A stretch of DNA of 64,000 nt from an uncultured Clostridia bacterium (GTDB lineage Bacteria; Bacillota; Clostridia; Christensenellales; Borkfalkiaceae), in contig CANRHB010000001.1 of NCBI GenBank assembly GCA_947630325.1, positions 93,579 through 157,578 of the forward strand. Direction: 5' to 3'. The position numbers and the translations under genes were made by a program. Position 1 is the first letter of the stretch, and every line of letters starts with the position of its first letter. The notes under the pieces are model-generated. The model ran no database searches. It was given only the letters and a program-made list of their open reading frames with translations, and had not been told where the DNA came from. Shown here piece by piece: positions 12,259 to 50,042 of this stretch.

Positions 12259-12864
12259 TTAATAGCTTCTCAAAAGCCCGACGACTTTGCCCAAAATTTG
12301 GACGCCGCTCGTCTCGTCGAGCACAAAGTCGGCGAGTTTTTCGTTCTCGGGGTGAAGAACGATCTTTCCGTCACGGCGGAAGAACCGCTTCACCGTCGCG
12401 CCCTCGTCCACGCCGTCGTTAAACAGAGCCACCACAATGTCGCCGTTCTCGGCAGCATCCTGCTTCTTGACGACCACCTTATCACCGTCGAAGATGCCGG
12501 CTTCTATCATGCTCTCGCCGCTCACACGGAGGAGAAAGAGATCGTCGCCCTTGAATTCCGCGGCGGGCAGGGTGTACATGTCCTCGAAATTTTCCTGCGC
12601 CAAAATGGGCTGACCAGCGGTGACGGTACCGATGAGGGGAGCCCGCACGGTCGAAACGCTTCGCACGGAGACAGCGCGCTTTTTGTTGTCCGCCTTGTTG
12701 AGAAATCCCTGTTCGCGCAGACGGTTGACATAGCTATACGCCGTCGCCGTCGATTTAATGCCCAAATCGCGGCACATATCCCTGACAGTGGGGGGGAACC
12801 CGTTTTCATCGCAATAGCGGTCGATATAGCGAACCACCTCTTCGAGCTTCTTTTGATCGATCAT
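12259..12864 (-). CDS. lexA: LexA repressor (S24 peptidase)
   Basis: Winged-helix N-terminus, VSGESMIEAGI Ser and VVVKK Lys of the self-cleavage dyad. Confidence 0.92.
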   Translation of the reverse strand: MIDQKKLEEVVRYIDRYCDENGFPPTVRDMCRDLGIKSTATAYSYVNRLREQGFLNKADNKKRAVSVRSVSTVRAPLIGTVTAGQPILAQENFEDMYTLPAAEFKGDDLFLLRVSGESMIEAGIFDGDKVVVKKQDAAENGDIVVALFNDGVDEGATVKRFFRRDGKIVLHPENEKLADFVLDETSGVQILGKVVGLLRSY

Positions 12865-12881: not shown

Positions 12882-12910
12882 ATTATAACACAAATAAAAA
12901 AATATTGCAA
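12882..12910 (-). promoter_or_regulatory. lexA promoter TTGCAA-17-TATAAT
   Basis: Minus-strand -35 at 12910-12905 and -10 at 12887-12882; GGAGG RBS downstream. Confidence 0.65.
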
Positions 12911-12921
12911 ACAAACGTTCT
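12908..12921. promoter_or_regulatory. SOS (Cheo-type) box AGAACGTTTGTTTG overlapping the lexA -35
   Basis: Matches Firmicute CGAAC-N4-GTTCG in 12 of 14 positions. Confidence 0.6.
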
Positions 12922-12953
12922 ATGTTTTTGAAAAATTTTTATAATTTTTTTTC

Positions 12954-43784: not shown

Positions 43785-43885
43785 ATCCGATCCTCATTGT
43801 AATGTCACTTCTATTTTAACAGATTTTTTATATTTTGCAAGAGTTTTTCGTTAAGATGTATCTCCACCTACCTTTGGAAGAACGA

Positions 43886-44690
43886 AACCCCCTCCATTGG
43901 AGGGGGACTAAGGGGGTGGGCATACTCGCCTCCCCTCGCAACGCTTAGCCCCCTTGGCGCCCCTTATAGGTGGAGTTAAGAAAAGCAGTTGCGAAACCCC
44001 CTCCATTGAGGTGGAGTGCCCAAACAGAACCCCCTCCATTGGAGGGGGACTAAGGGGGTGGGCATTCGTCGCCTCCCCTCGCAACGCTTAGCCCCCTTGG
44101 CACCCCTTATAGGGGAGCTGTCGAGCGGAGCGAGACTGAGGGGTTCTCCGAGGGCCTAAGGGTTTGTGTACTCGTCGCCTCCCCTCCCCGCTCCGCGAGG
44201 GACAGCAAGGGTGAGACCTGCCCCCTTTTAAGGGGGCGGGTGGCGCGAAGCGCCAGGTGGGGGTTACAATGTTCTCTTGCCCACCCCTTGAGGGGTGGGT
44301 GGCACGCGCTCTGCGCGTGACGGAAGGGGTGTCTGCAATTTGAAAAGAACACCCCCCTCAGTCATTCGCAAGCTCGTGGAGACATCTCTACCTTAGTTCT
44401 AAAATTGTCATGTCGAGCGAAGTCGAGACATCTCTACCGCACGCCGTTCTTAAAATGTCATGTCGAGCGAAGTCGAGACATCTCTACCGCACGCCGTTCT
44501 TAAATTGTCATGTCGACCGAAGTGGAGACATCTCTACCGCATTATAATAAGGCGAGATTTCTCCACGCGCCGCATAGCGGCTTGGTACTTCGTCGCAGGC
44601 TCCTCGTGCCGCGCTTAGAGAATCAGAACGGCGCGCGGGGCGAAATGACAAAACATAAAGCGGGGCGAAATGACTTATTGGAAACACGCC
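43886..44690. repeat. mosaic palindromic-module cluster E (largest)
   Basis: ~88-bp direct repeat 43886-43972 / 44029-44116, M2, M3, M4 modules, three tandem ~50-bp M1 units (44402-44555), reverse M5. Confidence 0.9.
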
Positions 44691-44695
44691 CACCC

Positions 44696-44797
44696 CCCTA
44701 TCCTTTCCGCACTTTTCCCCCTACTCTCCTATTTCCATACAACGTCTTTTTGCGGGAGCCCTCTTTCCTTTCGATTCCCCTCTGACCCATACACAAA
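44696..44797. repeat. ~101-bp pyrimidine-rich repeat, copy X1
   Basis: About 93% identical by eye to 44911-45011. Confidence 0.85.
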
Positions 44798-44867
44798 GCC
44801 CCCGACCTGCGCAAGGGCTCCCAAAATATTGCAAGATTTTTTTTGGAAAATGCGGTTTGCGGCGACG

Positions 44868-44886
44868 TGGCAGGGGAGACGCGACT
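44868..44886 (-). other. 19-bp copy of the tRNA-Trp 3' end (att-like fragment)
   Basis: TGGCAGGGGAGACGCGACT identical to 45043-45061 (T-loop end, acceptor 3' strand, CCA). Confidence 0.85.
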
Positions 44887-44910
44887 TTATCCCACAAAAA
44901 GACGCTTTCG

Positions 44911-45011
44911 CCCTATCCTTTCCGCACTTCTCCCCTACTCTCCTATTCCCATGCAACGTCTTTTTGCGGGAGCCCTCTTCTCTTTCGATTCCCCTCTGAC
45001 CCATACGCAAA
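44911..45011. repeat. ~101-bp pyrimidine-rich repeat, copy X2
   Basis: Directly downstream of the tRNA-Trp terminator; matches X1. Confidence 0.85.
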
Positions 45012-45041
45012 ACGCCCAACCTGTTTTACAGGTTGGGCGTT
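45008..45041 (-). terminator. tRNA-Trp terminator
   Basis: 12-bp stem ACGCCCAACCTG/CAGGTTGGGCGT, loop TTTTA, T4 on the minus strand. Confidence 0.8.
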
Positions 45042-45042
45042 T

Positions 45043-45117
45043 TGGCAGGGGAGACGCGACTCGAACACGCAACAGACGGTTTTGGAGACCGTTGCTCTAC
45101 CATTGAACTACTCCCCT
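45043..45117 (-). tRNA. trnW: tRNA-Trp (anticodon CCA), CCA-encoded
   Basis: Manual cloverleaf: acceptor AGGGGAG/CTCCCCT, anticodon stem ACGGT/ACCGT, loop CTCCAAA, T-loop TTCGAGT, 75 nt. Confidence 0.9.
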
Positions 45118-45129
45118 ATCGACAAGTAC

Positions 45130-45158
45130 ATTATATAACAATCTTCCCTTTCCGTCAA
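45130..45158 (-). promoter_or_regulatory. tRNA-Trp promoter TTGACG-17-TATAAT
   Basis: Minus-strand hexamers 45158-45153 and 45135-45130, about 12 nt before the tRNA 5' end. Confidence 0.65.
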
Positions 45159-45187
45159 GATATTTTCGGCGGCAAAATCAAACTTTT

Positions 45188-45439
45188 TTATTCGGATTTG
45201 GCCTCTACAAACCATCTTTGCCGTTCGGGTTCGAAATAGAGCCACCGTTCCTTGCCCAAAATAACGCAGGTGAAGCGCACGGGAAGAAGTGCGCTCACCC
45301 GCGCGGGAGCGTGTTCCACCGCTTTGACTTTATCGATCGTAAGCGTTCTCCCATCCTCCCAGACGAGGGAGAGAGGTTTTACTCCCCCCTCCCTCGAAAA
45401 TTTTGCCATGACTTCCACACACACTTTCCGAAGTTGCAT
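45188..45439 (-). CDS. hypothetical 83-aa protein downstream of the tail-fibre-like gene
   Basis: Open frame with weak RBS; no motif recognised; position is that of a tail-fibre assembly/chaperone gene (inference only). Confidence 0.5.
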   Translation of the reverse strand: MQLRKVCVEVMAKFSREGGVKPLSLVWEDGRTLTIDKVKAVEHAPARVSALLPVRFTCVILGKERWLYFEPERQRWFVEAKSE

Positions 45440-45468
45440 CCAACTTAGCTTCGGCAGTTAAGCGAAAA

Positions 45469-47400
45469 TCATGCGCCCAGCTCCTTCCATGCGCTCCACG
45501 AGCCCGACGAATAGACGCGCACGCACACCGAACGGTCCGTTTTGCCCGAGACGGCAAGCTGTGCGCGGTAAGAGTTGTCCGACGAGGACGCCGAGAACAC
45601 GAACCAAACGCAGCTGGACCCGGAAACGTTGTCCACCGAGACGGGGAAGTGGGTGCAGACGTGGGAGGAAGAACCCACCACGCAGAACATGCCGTTCTGC
45701 ATCTCGTTGAAATCGGTGGGCGGGTCGAAATTGAGCGGGAACTGCCTGTCGTCGGTCAGCCCGCCGAGCCCGAGGGTCTGCTTGTCCAGAGTGACGTCGC
45801 CCGTCTTGCCGTTGACGCTCGTGACCCCCGTCGTGAGCGACGTTGCGATGACGACATTGTTCGAACCGTCCCTCGTCACGGAGATGTTCGCCCCCGCTTT
45901 CACGGCGTCCGCACCGAGTTTTGCCCCCGTGACCGCACCGTCGGCGATCTTTTCCTCCGTAACGGCGTCCTTTGCCAGCTTTTTGTTGCCCACGGCAGAC
46001 CCCGAAATATGGTCGCTGAGGATGCTGCCGAAGCGGATCTCCCCGCTCCCCACGCACTGTGCGTCCAAATCGCCGCGCGCGACGGTGTCCTTTGTGGCAA
46101 GCGCGCCGAGCCCGAGGGTGGAGGCAGAAATCGTCACCTCTCCCGTCTGTCCGTTGACGGAAGTCACGCCGCCCGAGCCTCCCTCGGGTTTGTCTTTCAA
46201 ATCGTTGTAACTTCCGCTCGTGGCGACCTTGGCAAGCCCCATGAGGTCGGCCGTCAGAATGACGTTCCCCGTCTGCCCGTTGACGGACAGCACGCCCGAC
46301 TCGGGCGCGTCCACAAGGTCGAGGAAGCTCCCCGAGACCGCCACGTCGGCAAGTCCGAGCGAATCTTTGTCGATCCAAACCTTTCCCGTCTGGCCGTTGA
46401 CCGAATAGACGCCCGTATCGGGGGCGCCGATGAGGTCGCGGTAATTTCCGCTGTAAGCGATGTCCGCAAGCCCGAGGAAGTCCTGGTCGACGATGACGTC
46501 CCCCCTCTCGCCGTTCACGGAGAACACGACGTCCTTTGCGGAAACGGCAAGATCGCCGCCTGCGTCGCGCGCAACGGAAATGTGCTCGCCCGCTTTCACT
46601 GCGCCGTCCGCAAGTTTCTTGCCCGTGACCGCGCCGTCCGCGATGCTCTGCGTTCCAACGCACCCCGCGCCGAGGTCGCCCTGCGCCACCGTGTCCTTTT
46701 TGGCGAGTTTCCCGAGCGTGACGGTGACGTCCTGCGTGCCGTCATAACTCTGGTCCCCGATCTTGAGGGTGTGCCCGAGGGAGCCGCCCGATGCCGAAAG
46801 TTTGAGTTCTTCGAGCTTTTCGCCGTCGAAATAATGAGGAACATAGACGCCGTCCTGCAAGCGGAAGAAGATGCCGCCGGGCGCGAGTTCTTCGGAGGGC
46901 TGCCCAGCTTGATCCTTGCTGACCTCGATGATCTTCATCCCCTCGGTGACGAGCCCCTTCTTGTTGACCCTGACAGCCGAGTAGATCCCCTCCGCGACCT
47001 TATCCGCAAAGATCTCCCAATCCTTTTCATTGAGGAAGGAGAGCACCTGCTCGTGAAGGGAAGCGGAGGGCTTGGGCCGGGGGAATCCGCCCGCGCCCGC
47101 TTCACAGCGCAGACGCACAAAGGAAGAGGCGATCCGCTCTGTGCCGAGCCTGCTGTACACGCCGATGAGCACGCTGTCCGCGTCCAAAGATGTGATCTGC
47201 GGCATTTCGCACTCCGTGCCTGTAAACAGCTTCTCCGCGGCGCCGCCCGCCCACATCACCACGGCAACGCGGGAGGGATAATTGTTCCACTCTTCGTCGA
47301 AGGCGAACTTCAGGCGGTACACGCTGTTAAAAGAAACGACCTCCGAAAAGGTCGTTTCCGCGATCTTGTTTTTGACCGAAATTGCAATTTCTTGGTTCAA
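45469..47400 (-). CDS. phage tail-fibre-like protein with knob-like C-terminus
   Basis: Five SVNG(Q/K/E)(T/R)G(x)V repeats, SGSYNDLKDKP-type tail-fibre repeats, C-terminal W-rich knob; TTG 47400 sits 9 nt after GGAGG. Confidence 0.75.
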   Translation of the reverse strand: MNQEIAISVKNKIAETTFSEVVSFNSVYRLKFAFDEEWNNYPSRVAVVMWAGGAAEKLFTGTECEMPQITSLDADSVLIGVYSRLGTERIASSFVRLRCEAGAGGFPRPKPSASLHEQVLSFLNEKDWEIFADKVAEGIYSAVRVNKKGLVTEGMKIIEVSKDQAGQPSEELAPGGIFFRLQDGVYVPHYFDGEKLEELKLSASGGSLGHTLKIGDQSYDGTQDVTVTLGKLAKKDTVAQGDLGAGCVGTQSIADGAVTGKKLADGAVKAGEHISVARDAGGDLAVSAKDVVFSVNGERGDVIVDQDFLGLADIAYSGNYRDLIGAPDTGVYSVNGQTGKVWIDKDSLGLADVAVSGSFLDLVDAPESGVLSVNGQTGNVILTADLMGLAKVATSGSYNDLKDKPEGGSGGVTSVNGQTGEVTISASTLGLGALATKDTVARGDLDAQCVGSGEIRFGSILSDHISGSAVGNKKLAKDAVTEEKIADGAVTGAKLGADAVKAGANISVTRDGSNNVVIATSLTTGVTSVNGKTGDVTLDKQTLGLGGLTDDRQFPLNFDPPTDFNEMQNGMFCVVGSSSHVCTHFPVSVDNVSGSSCVWFVFSASSSDNSYRAQLAVSGKTDRSVCVRVYSSGSWSAWKELGA

Positions 47401-47433
47401 TGAAAAAATCCTCCATATGGAATTTGTACTTCC

Positions 47434-47439
47434 ATTATA
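47434..47439 (-). promoter_or_regulatory. candidate -10 (TATAAT) for the tail-fibre-like gene
   Basis: Minus strand TTGTATAATGG between the purB terminator and the RBS; -35 poor. Confidence 0.35.
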
Positions 47440-47474
47440 CAATACAAATTGCCACTTTGGGGGGGATAGGTGCC

Positions 47475-47503
47475 AAAAAACCGCGGAATTTCCGCGGTTT
47501 TTT
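47475..47503 (-). terminator. purB terminator
   Basis: CCGCGGA-ATT-TCCGCGG flanked by A6 and T6; lies inside the tracked ORF extension 47401-47520. Confidence 0.8.
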
Positions 47504-47508
47504 ACAAT

Positions 47509-47529
47509 TATGTCTGACATAGTACTATG
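47509..47529. repeat. AT-rich palindrome family copy
   Basis: TATGTC-T-GACATA plus CATAGTACTATG (perfect 12-bp palindrome), 24 nt after the purB stop. Confidence 0.8.
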
Positions 47530-47552
47530 CTAACGTCGTTTTTTCAAAAGTT

Positions 47553-48989
47553 TTACACGTTTACAATGCCCTTTTCACCGAGGAGCGCCTGATTTTCGTT
47601 CAAAATCGGGTCGATTTCATTTTCGATGAATTCGGCTGTCTGCGCGGGCGCGCGCCCCACGAATTTCTTGACGTCGAGAATTTCGCCGAGTTTTCCGTGC
47701 ACTGCCGCAAACAGTTCGTCCCCTTCGATGCGGGAAAGAAGGTCGTTCTCCATCCCCTCTTCCTTCACCCGCCGTCCCGCTTCCTGCGAGAGCCTGCGGA
47801 TACGCTCGTGCAACTCCTGCCTGTTCCCCCCTGCCTTGACGCACTCCATAATGATATTTTCGGTCGCCATAAAGGGAAGTTCCTGCGCTATGTGCTTTTC
47901 GATCGTCTTTTCATACACGACAAGATTTTCAGCCACGTTCAAATAGAGATTGAGAACGGCGTCCGCAGTGAGAAATGCCTGCGCGTTGACGATGCGGCGG
48001 TTCGCCGAGTCGTCGAGGGTGCGCTCGAACCACTGCGTGGAGGCGGTGATCGCGCTGTTCATGGGAAGGGAGATGAGATAGCGGCACAAACTCCCCATTC
48101 TCTCGCACCGCATGGGGTTGCGCTTATACGCCATCGCCGAAGAGCCGATCTGCGACTTTTCGAAGGGTTCTTCCACCTCCTTCATGTTCTGCAAAAGGCG
48201 GATGTCGTTGGAGAATTTATAGGCGCTCTGTGCGATCTGCGAGAGCACGCAGAGCACGTTATAGTCGAATTTGCGGGGGTAAGTCTGCCCCGTCACGCCG
48301 TACACCCTCTCGAAACCGAGTTTTTCGGCCACCCGTTTCTCGAGCTTTTTCACCTTCTCGCCGTCGCCGTCGAAGAGGTCCAAAAAACTCGCCTGCGTGC
48401 CCGTCGTCCCCTTCACCCCGCGCAATTTGAAGCGGGAGAGAAGATTTTCGAGGTTCTCATAATCGAGCATGAGGTCCTGCATCCAAAGGGTTGCGCGCTT
48501 GCCGACCGTCGTCAGCTGGGCGGGTTGCAGATGGGTGAAGCCGAGCGTGGGCGTATCTTTGTAGCGCAGAGCGAACGTCTTGAGTTTGTCGAGCACGTTC
48601 ACGAGTTTTCGTTTGAGAATGAATAGCCCGTCGTGCAAGATGATGAGCTCCGAATTGCAATCCACGAAACAACTCGTTGCGCCGAGGTGGATGATCCCCG
48701 CGGCCTTGGGGGCGGCGTCGCCGTATGCCTTCACGTGCGCCATCACATCGTGCCGCACCTGCCGCTCATACTCGTCCGCGCGCGCATAGTCGATGTCCGT
48801 CTCATGCGCCTTGAGTTCCTCGATCTGCTCATGCGTAATGGGAAGTCCCAACTCCGCCTCGCTCTCGGCAAGGGCGATCCACAGCTTTCTCCAGAGGCGG
48901 AAACGTTTCTCGTCCCCGAAATTCTCCTGCATTTCGCGGCTTGCATAGCGGGTATTCAACGGGTTTTCATAGATCGTCTTGTCCGGCAT
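47553..48989 (-). CDS. purB: adenylosuccinate lyase
   Basis: 478 aa; fumarate-lyase family signature GSSAMAYKRNP. Confidence 0.93.
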   Translation of the reverse strand: MPDKTIYENPLNTRYASREMQENFGDEKRFRLWRKLWIALAESEAELGLPITHEQIEELKAHETDIDYARADEYERQVRHDVMAHVKAYGDAAPKAAGIIHLGATSCFVDCNSELIILHDGLFILKRKLVNVLDKLKTFALRYKDTPTLGFTHLQPAQLTTVGKRATLWMQDLMLDYENLENLLSRFKLRGVKGTTGTQASFLDLFDGDGEKVKKLEKRVAEKLGFERVYGVTGQTYPRKFDYNVLCVLSQIAQSAYKFSNDIRLLQNMKEVEEPFEKSQIGSSAMAYKRNPMRCERMGSLCRYLISLPMNSAITASTQWFERTLDDSANRRIVNAQAFLTADAVLNLYLNVAENLVVYEKTIEKHIAQELPFMATENIIMECVKAGGNRQELHERIRRLSQEAGRRVKEEGMENDLLSRIEGDELFAAVHGKLGEILDVKKFVGRAPAQTAEFIENEIDPILNENQALLGEKGIVNV

Positions 48990-48999
48990 TTTCGCTCCT

Positions 49000-49518
49000 T
49001 TACACCTTTTCGGGCTCGGGATAGTCCACCCCGAAGGTCTCCGCGGTGACTTTTTTCATCTTTTGCTCCTTTATGGGGCGGTCATTATAGTCGGTGCGGG
49101 TGGAAGCGATCTCGTCCACGACCCACATCCCCTCTGTCACTTTGCCGAACGCCGCATACTGCCCGTCGAGATAGGAGGCGTCTGCGTGCATGACAAAGAA
49201 CTGCGACCCCGCGCTATTCGGTGCGGACGTGCGCGCCATGGAGAGGACGCCCCGCTCGTGCTTTAAGGGGTTGGAAAAGCCGTTCGCACGGAATTCTCCC
49301 TTAATGCAGTAGCCTGGACCGCCCGTCCCCGTGCCCTTGGGGTCTCCCCCTTGGATCATGAACCCCGCGATCACGCGGTGAAAGATGACGCCGTCATAAA
49401 ATCCCTTCTTCACAAGGGAGAGGAAATTATTCACGGTGTTGGGTGCGATCTCGGGAAAAAGTTCGGCTTTGAACGTTTTTCCGTTCTCCATTTCGAACGT
49501 TACAATGGGATTTGCCAT
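49000..49518 (-). CDS. ppiB: peptidyl-prolyl cis-trans isomerase, cyclophilin type
   Basis: FHRVIAGFMIQGGDP and GSQFFV motifs. Confidence 0.92.
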   Translation of the reverse strand: MANPIVTFEMENGKTFKAELFPEIAPNTVNNFLSLVKKGFYDGVIFHRVIAGFMIQGGDPKGTGTGGPGYCIKGEFRANGFSNPLKHERGVLSMARTSAPNSAGSQFFVMHADASYLDGQYAAFGKVTEGMWVVDEIASTRTDYNDRPIKEQKMKKVTAETFGVDYPEPEKV

Positions 49519-49528
49519 ATTTTACAAT

Positions 49529-49972
49529 TTACTCCTCGTATTTTTCTACTTTGGTGCCCGCTTCGCGGAAGAGTTCCATCGAGAACTCGTCGGGATAGCC
49601 CTCTTTGTAGACGACCCGTTCGATCCCCGCGTTGATGATCATCTTTGCGCAGATGACGCAGGGCTGGTGGGTGCAATAGAGGGTAGAACCGTCGATGTTC
49701 ACGCCGTACTTCGCCGCCTGTATGATGGCGTTCTGTTCGGCGTGGGCGGCATAGCAGAGCTCTGCGTGGGTGCCGCTCGGAATGTTTTGCTCGATACGGA
49801 GGCACTTCCCCCGCTCAATGCAGGATTTGATGCCCGTCGGCGCGCCGTTATAGCCCGTCGCCATCACCCGTCTGCCCTTCACGATGACCGCCCCCACTTT
49901 GCGGCGGAGGCAGCTTGCCCAAGTTCCCACCTGTTCGGTAAGCTCCATAAACCGTTGATCCCACTTTTCCAT
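49529..49972 (-). CDS. dCMP deaminase (ComEB-like)
   Basis: HAEQNAI and PCVICAKMI zinc-binding motifs. Confidence 0.9.
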   Translation of the reverse strand: MEKWDQRFMELTEQVGTWASCLRRKVGAVIVKGRRVMATGYNGAPTGIKSCIERGKCLRIEQNIPSGTHAELCYAAHAEQNAIIQAAKYGVNIDGSTLYCTHQPCVICAKMIINAGIERVVYKEGYPDEFSMELFREAGTKVEKYEE

Positions 49973-50042
49973 AACCTTCCTCCTTTTTCGATTATATCAT
50001 AGATATCCGAAAATGGCAAGAGTTTTTCTCCACCTCAAACGA

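What the first reader, a model, noticed from the sequence alone, without database searches (positions are those of the whole stretch)
45188..47439. Orphan phage-tail-fibre-like gene (plus small downstream ORF) in a housekeeping context
The 643-aa product has five (S/T)VNG(Q/K/E)(T/R)G(x)V repeats alternating with LGLA(x)VA(x)SGS(Y/F)(x)DL(x)(x)(x)P motifs, typical of phage tail fibres. It ends in a Trp-rich ...SSGSWSAWKELGA module resembling a pyocin/tail-fibre knob. An 83-aa ORF follows it, in the position of a fibre-assembly chaperone. No capsid, terminase, tape-measure, baseplate, lysis or integrase genes occur within 15 kb on either side. The pair sits between the purB terminator and the tRNA-Trp promoter, with its own RBS (GGAGG-9-TTG) and a possible -10. 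Its base composition looks like the host's. It may be a domesticated fibre (adhesin, bacteriocin receptor-binding module or spore-surface protein) or the last remnant of a prophage at tRNA-Trp.
Basis: partly seen in the sequence, partly recalled or inferred. Interest (0 to 1): 0.6.

Follow-up and report, generated by a model that had tools for sequence, protein, structure and literature searches.

The report
Domesticated phage tail-fibre gene beside purB
A gene derived from a phage tail fibre has sat just downstream of the housekeeping gene purB throughout a clade of uncultured rabbit and chicken gut Clostridia; its anchoring end is conserved and its binding tip diverges fast, so the bacteria seem to use it, but the structure it attaches to was not found.

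Summary
Window 45469-47400 (-) encodes a 643-aa protein with five SVNGxxGxV repeat motifs and a Trp-containing C-terminal knob. An 83-aa ORF follows, and both flanks are housekeeping genes for at least 15 kb.

The protein is phage-derived:
- Its N-terminal domain belongs to a large family found at the start of phage fibre proteins. In one phage genome this family sits directly after the tape-measure and tail-tip genes.
- Its repeats match the stalk of the monocin side fibre FtbO.
- Its tip resembles pyocin and phage fibre knobs.

It is not a recent prophage scrap. In all 26 related loci examined, including 17 from species-representative genomes, the order PPIase-purB-fibre is invariant. N-domain divergence tracks purB divergence (rho 0.91). 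The knob diverges far faster, to 34-72% identity. In one lineage the shaft and tip have been replaced outright behind the same N-domain. dN/dS is below 1 throughout.

The 83-aa ORF evolves like a housekeeping gene and does not track the tip. It is absent from the Gallimonas-type loci. Its distant relatives lie beside LexA-like and Y-family polymerase genes, so a fibre-chaperone role is unsupported.

The parts
45469..47400 (-). Fibre-like gene, 643 aa, TTG start (stop codon included)
   Evidence: It has 156 homologues at E<=1e-3.
47026..47400 (-). N-terminal anchor domain (aa 1-125), a beta-sandwich
   Evidence: Modelled at pLDDT about 70-86. It is 58-93% identical among orthologues, with dN/dS 0.09-0.24. 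The exhaustive profile search found 2573 relatives, mostly carrying it at the N-terminus of proteins of varied length; several of the ten sampled have collagen or tail-fibre PHROG matches. A homologue in phage MT835537 lies right after the tape-measure and tail-tip genes.
46726..47025 (-). Second N-terminal subdomain (aa 126-225), absent from some orthologues (L005/P0019, P0060)
   Evidence: Alignment A1. pLDDT is about 73 for residues 155-200. Residues 131-194 recur as internal repeats in giant proteins (P0181, P0242).
45736..46725 (-). Shaft (aa 226-555): about 39-aa SVNGxTGxV...LGLAxVAxSGSYxDLxDxP units plus two AVTGxKL...ISVxRD modules
   Evidence: Copy number is 4-13 across the family. 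The profile matches the stalk of monocin side-fibre protein FtbO, PDB 9j1l, at E 4.5e-7. PHROG tail fibre and minor tail hits reach 2e-11.
45472..45735 (-). C-terminal knob (aa 556-643), the fast-evolving tip
   Evidence: pLDDT is 85-92. Identity to orthologues is only 24-72%, with dN/dS 0.23-0.74. Foldseek gives probability 0.97-0.99 to the R1/R2 pyocin fibres 6cl5/6cl6 and 0.99 to the Pa193 fibre, but E is only about 0.05. NCBI names homologue P0051 'pyocin knob domain-containing protein'.
47410..47414 (-). Ribosome-binding site GGAGG, 9 nt before the TTG start
   Evidence: Conserved in orthologous loci.
47434..47439 (-). Candidate -10 box TATAAT, with no recognisable -35
   Evidence: TAnAAT invariant in 12 loci. 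The simple sigma-70 scan did not call it, because a -35 is lacking.
47475..47505 (-). purB terminator hairpin (CCGCGG-AAATT-CCGCGG followed by a T-run)
   Evidence: The hairpin is kept, with compensating differences, in 12 loci.
47506..47529 (.). Conserved palindromic motif CATAGTACTATGTCAGACATAAT between the purB stop and the terminator; one copy of a dispersed genome motif
   Evidence: Nearly invariant in 12 orthologous loci. There are 15 strand-matches at about 8 sites in the window, against 0.13 expected.
45188..45439 (-). 83-aa ORF: a conserved small all-beta protein, probably co-transcribed with the fibre but not demonstrably linked to it in function
   Evidence: AF2 pLDDT is 91 with six strands, and there is no PDB fold match. 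dN/dS is 0.03-0.07. For distant homologue contexts.
45043..45117 (-). tRNA-Trp (CCA) with its own promoter at 45158-45130

Best explanation
The gene is a phage receptor-binding fibre of the siphovirus side-fibre type. An ancestor of this clade of uncultured gut Clostridia (rabbit 'Lapin' MAGs, chicken Candidatus Gallimonas, 'BRZ' MAGs) captured it, and it has been inherited vertically ever since, directly downstream of purB.

The architecture is modular:
- A conserved N-terminal anchor (aa 1-125, plus an optional subdomain to about aa 225).
- A shaft of FtbO-like stalk repeats whose number varies between species.
- A C-terminal pyocin-knob-like tip that diverges very fast, or is exchanged together with the shaft.

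Inferred mechanism: the protein trimerises and docks through its N-domain onto a conserved partner encoded by the host itself. That partner is most likely a phage-derived particle or tail-like structure (tailocin-like or GTA-like) encoded elsewhere in the genome. The variable tip would then bind surface receptors on other cells. With no signal peptide and no wall anchor, the protein would reach the outside by lysis or within an assembled particle.

The 83-aa ORF is a separately conserved small beta-protein and not a tip-specific chaperone.

Shown here: phage ancestry, fixation beside purB, purifying selection, the conserved-anchor/variable-tip pattern, and modular replacement. Inferred only: trimeric state, the partner particle and the target.
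For: Phage ancestry:
- The N-domain profile finds 2573 proteins at E<=1e-3, nearly all carrying the domain at their N-terminus. Of ten sampled, two have collagen repeats and several match tail-fibre PHROGs; three hit phrog_19695 and two phrog_25979.
- In phage MT835537 the homologue lies directly after tape-measure and two tail-protein genes, in the usual Dit/Tal position, and before a tail spike and endolysin. hhalign probability is 93%.
- The repeats match the monocin FtbO stalk at E 4.5e-7.
- BFVD gives 32 fold matches at E<=1e-3 to virome fibre and BppU-domain proteins. The top PDB fold hits are phage baseplate chains and R-pyocin fibres.

Fixation:
- PPIase-purB-fibre order holds in 26 of 26 related loci, including 17 from GTDB species-representative genomes.

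Selection and modularity:
- dN/dS is below 1 in every domain. Against the closest orthologue, identity is purB 95%, N-domain 93% and knob 68%. Against more distant ones the knob is 34-36% identical, with dN/dS about 0.65.
- N-domain identity tracks purB identity (Spearman 0.91). Knob identity does not (0.38, not significant).
- L034 carries the same N-domain at the same site, but a wholly different shaft, tip and downstream ORF.
- Repeat number ranges from 4 to 13.

Age:
- There is a sharp E-value gap between the orthologue family (<=1e-45) and all other relatives (>=5e-17), which argues for an old capture.
Against: - No partner structure was seen. Nothing phage-like lies within 15 kb, and whole-genome search was shut, so the particle is an inference.
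- Pfam and NCBIfam find no family in the protein.
- The PDB fold hits are individually non-significant (E >= 0.01).
- The full-length model is poor outside the terminal domains (mean pLDDT 56), so the trimeric fibre geometry is unproven.
- No expression data exist; no RNA runs were listed.
- A fibre fixed away from any tail cluster could equally work on its own.
Confidence: 0.55

Rival explanations
1. A free-standing surface fibre. The trimer is laid onto the bacterium's own surface, for example as a spore-coat or exosporium nap in the manner of BclA, or as a wall-bound adhesin. The N-domain would be the anchor and the variable knob a host- or glycan-binding or immune-evasive tip. No phage-like particle would be involved.
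For: - It has the same three-part logic as BclA-type nap proteins: a conserved N-terminal targeting domain, a repeat shaft of variable length (4-13 units) and a trimeric-looking knob (recalled knowledge of BclA).
- It has no signal peptide. That fits assembly in a mother cell, or release by lysis.
- It is a core, syntenic gene with its own promoter-like -10.
- No tail genes lie nearby.
Against: - The N-domain's relatives are phage proteins, and the one located in a phage genome sits in a tail-tip module. This suggests docking to a baseplate-like partner.
- No SLH, CWB2, LPXTG or other wall-anchoring module was found.
- No sporulation promoter or sporulation genes were recognised near it, and ftsZ is not followed by spoIIGA-sigE in these loci. 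The sporulation capacity of the clade is unknown.
Confidence: 0.22
2. A host-encoded decoy or add-on for infecting phages. The conserved N-domain would compete for, or occupy, the fibre-docking sites on the baseplates of phages that use the same anchor type. Progeny would then be either mis-assembled (a defence) or retargeted.
For: - The same N-domain family is very common in gut phage fibres.
- The gene is constitutively placed in the chromosome with a conserved anchor.
- Tip turnover would be expected in an arms race.
Against: - No contemporary phage protein has an N-domain close to the host one. There is an E-value gap from 1e-45 to 5e-17, and no relative was found in IMG/VR by the family's own patterns.
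- There is no PADLOC match.
- A decoy would not need a long shaft and a diversifying receptor-binding tip.
Confidence: 0.08
3. A functionless leftover of an ancient prophage (at tRNA-Trp or elsewhere) that simply has not yet decayed.
For: - It is phage-derived and isolated from any other phage gene.
- A 19-bp duplicate of the tRNA-Trp 3' end lies nearby.
Against: - The ORF is intact, and dN/dS is below 1 in every compared lineage, although synonymous divergence is saturated (dS >= 1) between the more distant ones.
- N-domain dN/dS is 0.09-0.24.
- The gene is present beside purB where no tRNA-Trp exists.
- It lies 5' of the tRNA, outside any element that a 3'-end att duplicate could bound.
Confidence: 0.04

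Closest known systems
Side-fibre proteins of siphoviruses and F-type tailocins (e.g. Listeria monocin FtbN/FtbO/FtbP, PDB 9j1l, PMC11830787; BppU-type baseplate proteins)
   Same: - The shaft repeats are sequence-homologous to the FtbO stalk domains (E 4.5e-7).
- The N-domain family sits after tape-measure and tail-tip genes in a phage.
- BppU-domain and baseplate chains are among the fold hits.
- The anchor-shaft-tip layout is the same.
   Different: - The gene is not in a tail gene cluster. It stands alone between purB and a tRNA or rnhA.
- The repeat units lack the paired histidines that bind iron in FtbO (sequence against the description).
- The Pfam BppU_N model gives no hit.
R-type pyocin fibres (P. 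aeruginosa PA0620 / PALES_06171, PDB 6cl6 / 6cl5) and other 'pyocin knob' fibre tips
   Same: - The C-terminal globular knob shows fold similarity at probability 0.97-0.99.
- NCBI names one family member a pyocin knob domain protein.
- The tip is the most variable part, as in pyocin specificity types.
   Different: - The E-values are weak (about 0.05), and neither sequence profile was significant (Pfam E >= 0.026; PDB E 0.5).
- There is a single knob, not a tandem pair.
- No adjacent cognate chaperone co-varies with the tip.
- No sheath, tube or baseplate genes are adjacent.
Accessory fibre and spike genes of gene transfer agents, encoded away from the main cluster (Rhodobacter capsulatus RcGTA tail fibre and head-spike loci; from memory, not checked here)
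   Same: It is a phage-derived attachment protein kept as a vertically inherited chromosomal gene in a conserved non-phage neighbourhood across a clade.
   Different: - No GTA-like head-tail cluster is known or was seen for these Clostridia.
- Different phylum.
- No sequence relation was tested.
BclA-type exosporium nap proteins of Bacillus and Clostridioides (from memory)
   Same: - A conserved N-terminal targeting part, a repeat shaft of variable length and a C-terminal knob.
- No signal peptide.
   Different: - The shaft is not collagen-like, and Pfam Collagen gives no hit on this protein.
- The N-domain is of phage tail origin.
- Sporulation of the clade is unknown.

Membership tests
Phage tail fibre / receptor-binding protein (siphovirus side-fibre type) | N-terminal domain homologous to the virion-attachment domain of phage fibre proteins | tested here: met
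   - Profile search: 2573 relatives, with the domain mostly N-terminal in proteins of varied length; several of ten sampled carry collagen or tail-fibre PHROG matches.
- hhalign probability is 93% to the protein encoded after the tape-measure and tail-tip genes in phage MT835537.
Phage tail fibre / receptor-binding protein (siphovirus side-fibre type) | Shaft built from repeats homologous to a solved fibre stalk | tested here: met
   - The A1 profile matches FtbO (9j1l) at E 4.5e-7.
- PHROG tail fibre and minor tail hits lie between 2e-11 and 5e-6 over residues 354-503.
Phage tail fibre / receptor-binding protein (siphovirus side-fibre type) | Encoded within a tail morphogenesis module | tested here: not met
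   Flanks of at least 15 kb are housekeeping genes in the window and in all related loci.
Phage tail fibre / receptor-binding protein (siphovirus side-fibre type) | Homotrimeric fibre physically attached to a virion or tail | not testable with these tools
   Only a monomer model was made, and its shaft pLDDT is below 50. No multimer prediction or particle data are available.
Pyocin-knob domain (fibre tip) | C-terminal knob with the fold of the R-pyocin fibre knobs | tested here: inconclusive
   - Foldseek probability is 0.97-0.99 to 6cl5/6cl6, but E is 0.046-0.058 and the aligned region was not reported.
- The profile against PDB gives only E 0.5, to the phage P68 fibre.
- NCBI's name for P0051 is the only other support.
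Tailocin (R- or F-type) locus | Fibre gene adjacent to tube, sheath, baseplate and lysis genes, without head genes | tested here: not met
   None of these lie within 15 kb on either side in the window or its relatives. A cluster elsewhere in the genome could not be searched for.
Tail-fibre assembly chaperone (for the 83-aa ORF) | Homology to a known chaperone family (Tfa, gp38, gp57-type and similar) | tested here: not met
   No Pfam, PHROG, NCBIfam or PADLOC hit. There is no PDB fold match for a confident model (pLDDT 91).
Tail-fibre assembly chaperone (for the 83-aa ORF) | Co-occurs and co-varies with the fibre tip it serves | tested here: not met
   - It is 82-95% identical where the knob is 34-72% identical, with dN/dS 0.03-0.07.
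- It is absent from the Gallimonas-type loci, which have the same knob type.
- Its distant homologues lie beside LexA-like and Y-family polymerase genes.
Prophage remnant integrated at tRNA-Trp | Element lies 3' of the tRNA between att repeats, with an integrase or other phage genes | tested here: not met
   - The gene pair lies 5' of the tRNA.
- The only duplicate of the tRNA 3' end (44861-44897) is on the opposite side, 175 bp away.
- No integrase is adjacent.
- The fibre is present beside purB in genomes without the tRNA.
Secreted or wall-anchored adhesin | Sec signal peptide and/or a wall-anchoring module (LPXTG, SLH, CWB2) | tested here: not met
   The N-terminus MNQEIAISVKNKIAETTF has no hydrophobic segment. 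No Pfam or NCBIfam anchoring domain was found.

The most novel reading that the evidence does not exclude
The fibre is the targeting module of a chromosomally dispersed phage-derived particle (GTA-like or tailocin-like). The structural genes of that particle would lie elsewhere and be core to this family-level clade of gut Clostridia. The purB-linked locus would then act as a swappable specificity cassette: a fixed anchor, with shaft, tip and accessory gene exchanged between lineages, as L034 shows.

This would be a dispersed, vertically inherited phage-like system in Clostridia with a dedicated retargeting locus.
Probability: 0.2. Interest if true: 0.8.

Novelty: new variant of a known kind. 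Interest (0 to 1): 0.5.

Why it matters
Domesticated phage parts such as tailocins, contractile injection systems and GTAs shape competition and gene flow in microbiomes. They are normally recognised as gene clusters.

Here a single fibre gene has been kept in a housekeeping locus across a whole uncultured gut clade. It shows the evolutionary signature of a working receptor-binding protein: a conserved anchor, with a hypervariable or exchanged tip.

Two outcomes are possible. If its partner is found, it would reveal a dispersed phage-derived system in gut Clostridia, together with a natural retargeting cassette. If it has no partner, it would be an example of a tail fibre re-used as a stand-alone bacterial surface or binding protein.

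The work also gives a name and a context to a very large, unannotated N-terminal domain family of gut-phage fibres.

Tried and rejected
- Pfam, NCBIfam and PADLOC scans of both proteins found nothing. A Pfam scan of all 21 aligned small-ORF homologues (E up to 10) gave only one chance hit.
- tblastn of the fibre against 50,697 phage records gave only repeat-region hits, with at most 53% coverage and no full-length relative.
- A scan of IMG/VR with the N-domain patterns found no relative.
- Rfam on the whole window found only tRNA-Trp.
- For expression data, no RNA runs hold the gene.
- Laying metagenome contigs from four rabbit or gut runs on 44000-50000 gave fragmentary low-depth contigs from mixed relatives. 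They hinted at alleles with different repeat content, but the data were not clean enough to use.
- The Foldseek PDB search of the small ORF gave only nanobody-like chance hits (E >= 0.5).
- I tested whether the conserved palindrome upstream of the fibre is a LexA box. The organism's own lexA promoter carries a classical GAAC-N4-GTTT box, unlike the palindrome, so SOS control through that site is not supported.
- I considered a sigma-54 reading of the conserved TGGCAC after the terminator and rejected it, because no TTGC follows at the required spacing.
- I rejected the 683-aa ATG start because that ORF would include the purB terminator.
- The 129-aa ORF after the L034 fibre is unrelated to the 83-aa ORF (hhalign probability 2.8%).
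Full report
**1. What is there**

On the minus strand, purB (47553-48989) ends and is followed by:
- a conserved palindromic motif (47506-47529);
- a strong hairpin terminator (about 47475-47505);
- a TATAAT (47439-47434);
- GGAGG (47414-47410);
- nine bases later, a TTG (47400).

This TTG opens a 643-codon frame that ends at 45469. The longer 683-codon ATG frame would contain the purB terminator, so I rejected it. Gene callers chose the same 643-aa product on two independent metagenome contigs.

An 83-codon ORF (45439-45188) follows 29 nt later. After it comes tRNA-Trp (45117-45043) with its own TTGACG-17-TATAAT promoter.

The protein has five [ST]VNG[QKE][TR]G.V motifs, where 10,000 shuffles never produced one. 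Three of the repeat units carry a complete LGLA..VA.SGS(Y/F).DL...P half. A second duplicated module lies at residues 256 and 488. The protein ends ...SSGSWSAWKELGA.

Pfam scans of ten ORFs on each side show only housekeeping genes for at least 15 kb. A further stretch (about 10-21 kb of the window) holds glycogen phosphorylase, amylase, a Xer-type recombinase, HflX, LexA and a pseudouridine synthase.

GC content of the gene is 0.617. This is the top of the window's range (mean 0.553) but equals ftsZ.

**2. The protein is phage-derived, domain by domain**

Curated libraries do not recognise it: Pfam and NCBIfam give nothing. PHROGs gives only repeat-region hits to tail fibre and minor tail families. 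The evidence for each part is as follows.

(a) N-terminal domain.
- An exhaustive profile search with residues 1-225 found 2573 proteins at E<=1e-3. Thirty cluster representatives score at E<=1e-45 and form the orthologue family. After a sharp gap, the remainder start at 5e-17.
- The remainder range from about 130 to 2840 residues and mostly carry the domain at their extreme N-terminus. Of ten sampled, two have collagen repeats, several have tail-fibre PHROG matches elsewhere in the protein, and three hit phrog_19695 and two phrog_25979 (both of unknown function) on or over the N-domain.
- One such relative lies in the human-gut phage record MT835537. There the gene order is major head ... tape measure - small ORF - two tail proteins in the usual Dit/Tal position - N-domain protein - small ORF - tail spike - ... 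- endolysin. Profile comparison with the window's family gives 93% probability.
- The domain is therefore the baseplate-proximal end of siphovirus-type fibres.

(b) Shaft. A profile of the family matches the stalk domains of FtbO at E 4.5e-7. FtbO is a trimeric side-fibre rod of the Listeria F-type tailocin monocin (PMC11830787).

(c) Tip.
- In the AlphaFold model only the N-domain (pLDDT about 70-86), residues 155-200 (about 73) and the knob at 560-640 (85-92) are confident.
- Foldseek against the PDB gave no significant E-value. Its best hits were phage baseplate chains (phi812, NF5, 80alpha), R1/R2 pyocin fibres (probability 0.97-0.99) and a Pseudomonas phage fibre.
- Against predicted viral structures there were 32 hits at E<=1e-3. 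These were gut-virome fibre proteins, BppU-domain proteins and collagen-like tail proteins.
- NCBI names one family member a 'pyocin knob domain-containing protein'.
- A knob-only profile gave only a non-significant match to the phage P68 fibre.
- I treat the knob assignment as likely but not proven.

**3. It is a fixed chromosomal gene, not a recent remnant**

Homologues are numerous (156 at E<=1e-3), but they all come from uncultured Clostridia of rabbit, chicken and other gut samples.

I fetched the surrounding DNA for homologues across the identity range (83% to 35% full-length identity; some align over only about 60% of the query) and for the 17 GTDB species-representative contigs that carry the N-domain. 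In 26 of 26 related loci the order is PPIase - purB - fibre.

Downstream the lineages differ:
- The 'Lapin' group has the 83-aa ORF, then tRNA-Trp, rnhA and a VTT-domain gene.
- The Gallimonas/BRZ group has neither the small ORF nor the tRNA and continues with Fe-hydrogenase genes.
- One lineage has a DUF2310 gene inserted between purB and the fibre (L008).

The fibre's link to purB therefore predates these splits, and its link to tRNA-Trp is secondary.

It is real (44861-44897 against 45036-45072), but it lies on the tRNA's 3' side, away from the fibre, and encloses only about 160 bp.

**4. Evolutionary signature**

Nei-Gojobori estimates against six orthologous loci give these values:

| Comparison | purB identity | N-domain (1-125) identity | Shaft identity | Knob identity |
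|---|---|---|---|---|
| L003 (closest) | 95% (dN/dS 0.06) | 93% (0.09) | 81% (0.22) | 68% (0.23) |
| L004 and L005 | 88% and 83% | 86% and 68% | not listed | 36% and 34% (about 0.65-0.68) |

- In the L003 comparison the knob dS is 0.93, against 0.36 for the flanks. This suggests allele exchange as well as fast change.
- No domain exceeds dN/dS of 1, and all copies on complete contigs are intact.
- Across 18 loci, N-domain identity tracks purB identity (Spearman 0.91, p 2e-7). Knob identity does not (0.38, p 0.22, 12 loci).
- Repeat number ranges from 4 to 13.
- In L034 the same N-domain (58% identical) sits at the same site and is followed by an unrelated His/Ala/Thr-rich shaft, a different C-terminal domain and a different 129-aa downstream ORF.

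A conserved anchor, a shaft of variable length and a hypervariable or swapped tip is the pattern known from phage and tailocin receptor-binding proteins.

**5. The 83-aa ORF**

- It forms a tight family of its own: 24 hits, mostly 63-90% identical.
- It folds confidently (pLDDT 91) into six long beta-strands, with no match in the PDB.
- It matches nothing in Pfam, PHROGs, NCBIfam or PADLOC.
- It evolves like the housekeeping neighbours (95, 86 and 82% identity; dN/dS 0.03-0.07), whatever the state of the knob.
- It is missing from the loci of the Gallimonas group.
- Its two most distant homologues lie elsewhere. One is directly after an 80-aa LexA-DNA-binding-domain protein. The other is directly after a Y-family (IMS) polymerase gene and before an M78-peptidase-like gene.

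This points away from a fibre-specific chaperone and weakly towards a DNA-damage-related role. Its function remains unknown. It is probably co-transcribed with the fibre, since only 29 nt and no terminator separate them.

**6. How it most likely works**

Shown: the gene is a phage-derived fibre that has been retained under selection as a core gene of this clade, with a fixed anchor and a changing tip.

Inferred: it trimerises and docks by its N-domain onto a partner that is itself conserved in the clade, and it uses the tip to bind surfaces of other cells. With no signal peptide or wall anchor, it must reach the outside within an assembled particle, by lysis, or by deposition on a spore.

The strongly constrained N-domain is the main argument for a conserved docking partner. 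Because its relatives dock to siphovirus tail tips, a phage-derived particle encoded elsewhere is my first choice (confidence about 0.55 for the whole statement). I hold phage ancestry and domestication at about 0.85 and the particle partner at about 0.4.

Rival explanations are:
- a stand-alone BclA-like surface or spore fibre (0.22);
- a decoy or add-on for infecting phages (0.08; the lack of any close phage N-domain argues against it);
- a functionless remnant (0.04).

Other notes from this scan record chromosomally fixed phage-tail-derived systems in other uncultured gut Clostridia. They show that candidate partner types exist in this general group. I could not link them to this clade.

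**7. What could not be done**

The key test, a fibre-less tail cluster elsewhere, is therefore outstanding.
- No RNA data exist.
- The metagenome contig overlay was too fragmentary to use.

**8. Verdict**

This is a new variant of a known kind, a phage receptor-binding fibre fixed alone in a housekeeping locus. Interest is moderate, and would be high if the partner proves to be a dispersed particle system.

Noticed in passing
window 47506-47529; also about 2057, 11052, 13191, 15721, 15739, 36165 and 54969: A dispersed 19-bp palindrome, TACTATGTCWGACATAGTA, gives 15 strand-matches at about 8 sites, against 0.13 expected. At least four sites have a TTGAAA/TTGATT box exactly 17 nt before the TACTAT, which looks like a promoter plus operator. 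Several copies lie just after the stop codon of a minus-strand gene. The copy after purB is almost invariant in 12 orthologous loci. It is not the LexA box, because the lexA promoter has GAAC-N4-GTTT.
   Followed up: partly
window 43785-45042: A 1.26-kb gene-free tract between rnhA and tRNA-Trp is full of repeats: three 50-bp tandem units (44396-44545), 87-bp and 92-bp direct repeats (43884-44113; 44718-45023), and a duplicate of the tRNA-Trp 3' end (44861-44897). Metagenome contigs show very high summed depth here, so the repeat families are probably multi-copy.
   Followed up: partly
L034:10001-12754: One lineage has the same N-domain at the same purB-adjacent site, but a completely different shaft (HAxxADTATNA-type repeats with coiled-coil segments), a different C-terminal domain and a 129-aa coiled-coil-like downstream ORF. 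This is a natural cassette swap.
   Followed up: partly
L026:1512-2036; L029:6734-8836; L031:1206-3435: Distant homologues of the 83-aa ORF sit directly after an 80-aa LexA-DNA-binding-domain-only protein, or directly after a Y-family (IMS) DNA polymerase and before an M78-peptidase-like gene. This suggests a small accessory protein of DNA-damage modules.
   Followed up: partly
L014 and L016 (both from MAG Lapin-026 bin67): One MAG holds two different PPIase-purB-fibre contigs (N-domain 75% and 94% identical to the window). This is most simply two strains or species binned together, not paralogues.
   Followed up: no
window 46726-47025 (aa 126-225): The second N-terminal subdomain is deleted in some orthologues (L005, P0060). 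Residues 131-194 recur 7-10 times in giant proteins (P0181, 1696 aa; P0242, 2840 aa). The GIYSAVRVNKKGLVTEG stretch recalls, from memory only, the classic phage tail-fibre repeat.
   Followed up: no
window 12259-12864 (-) and 12900-12925: The organism has a canonical LexA (LexA_DNA_bind plus Peptidase_S24) with a GAACGTTTGTTT box in its own promoter, so an SOS system exists.
   Followed up: partly
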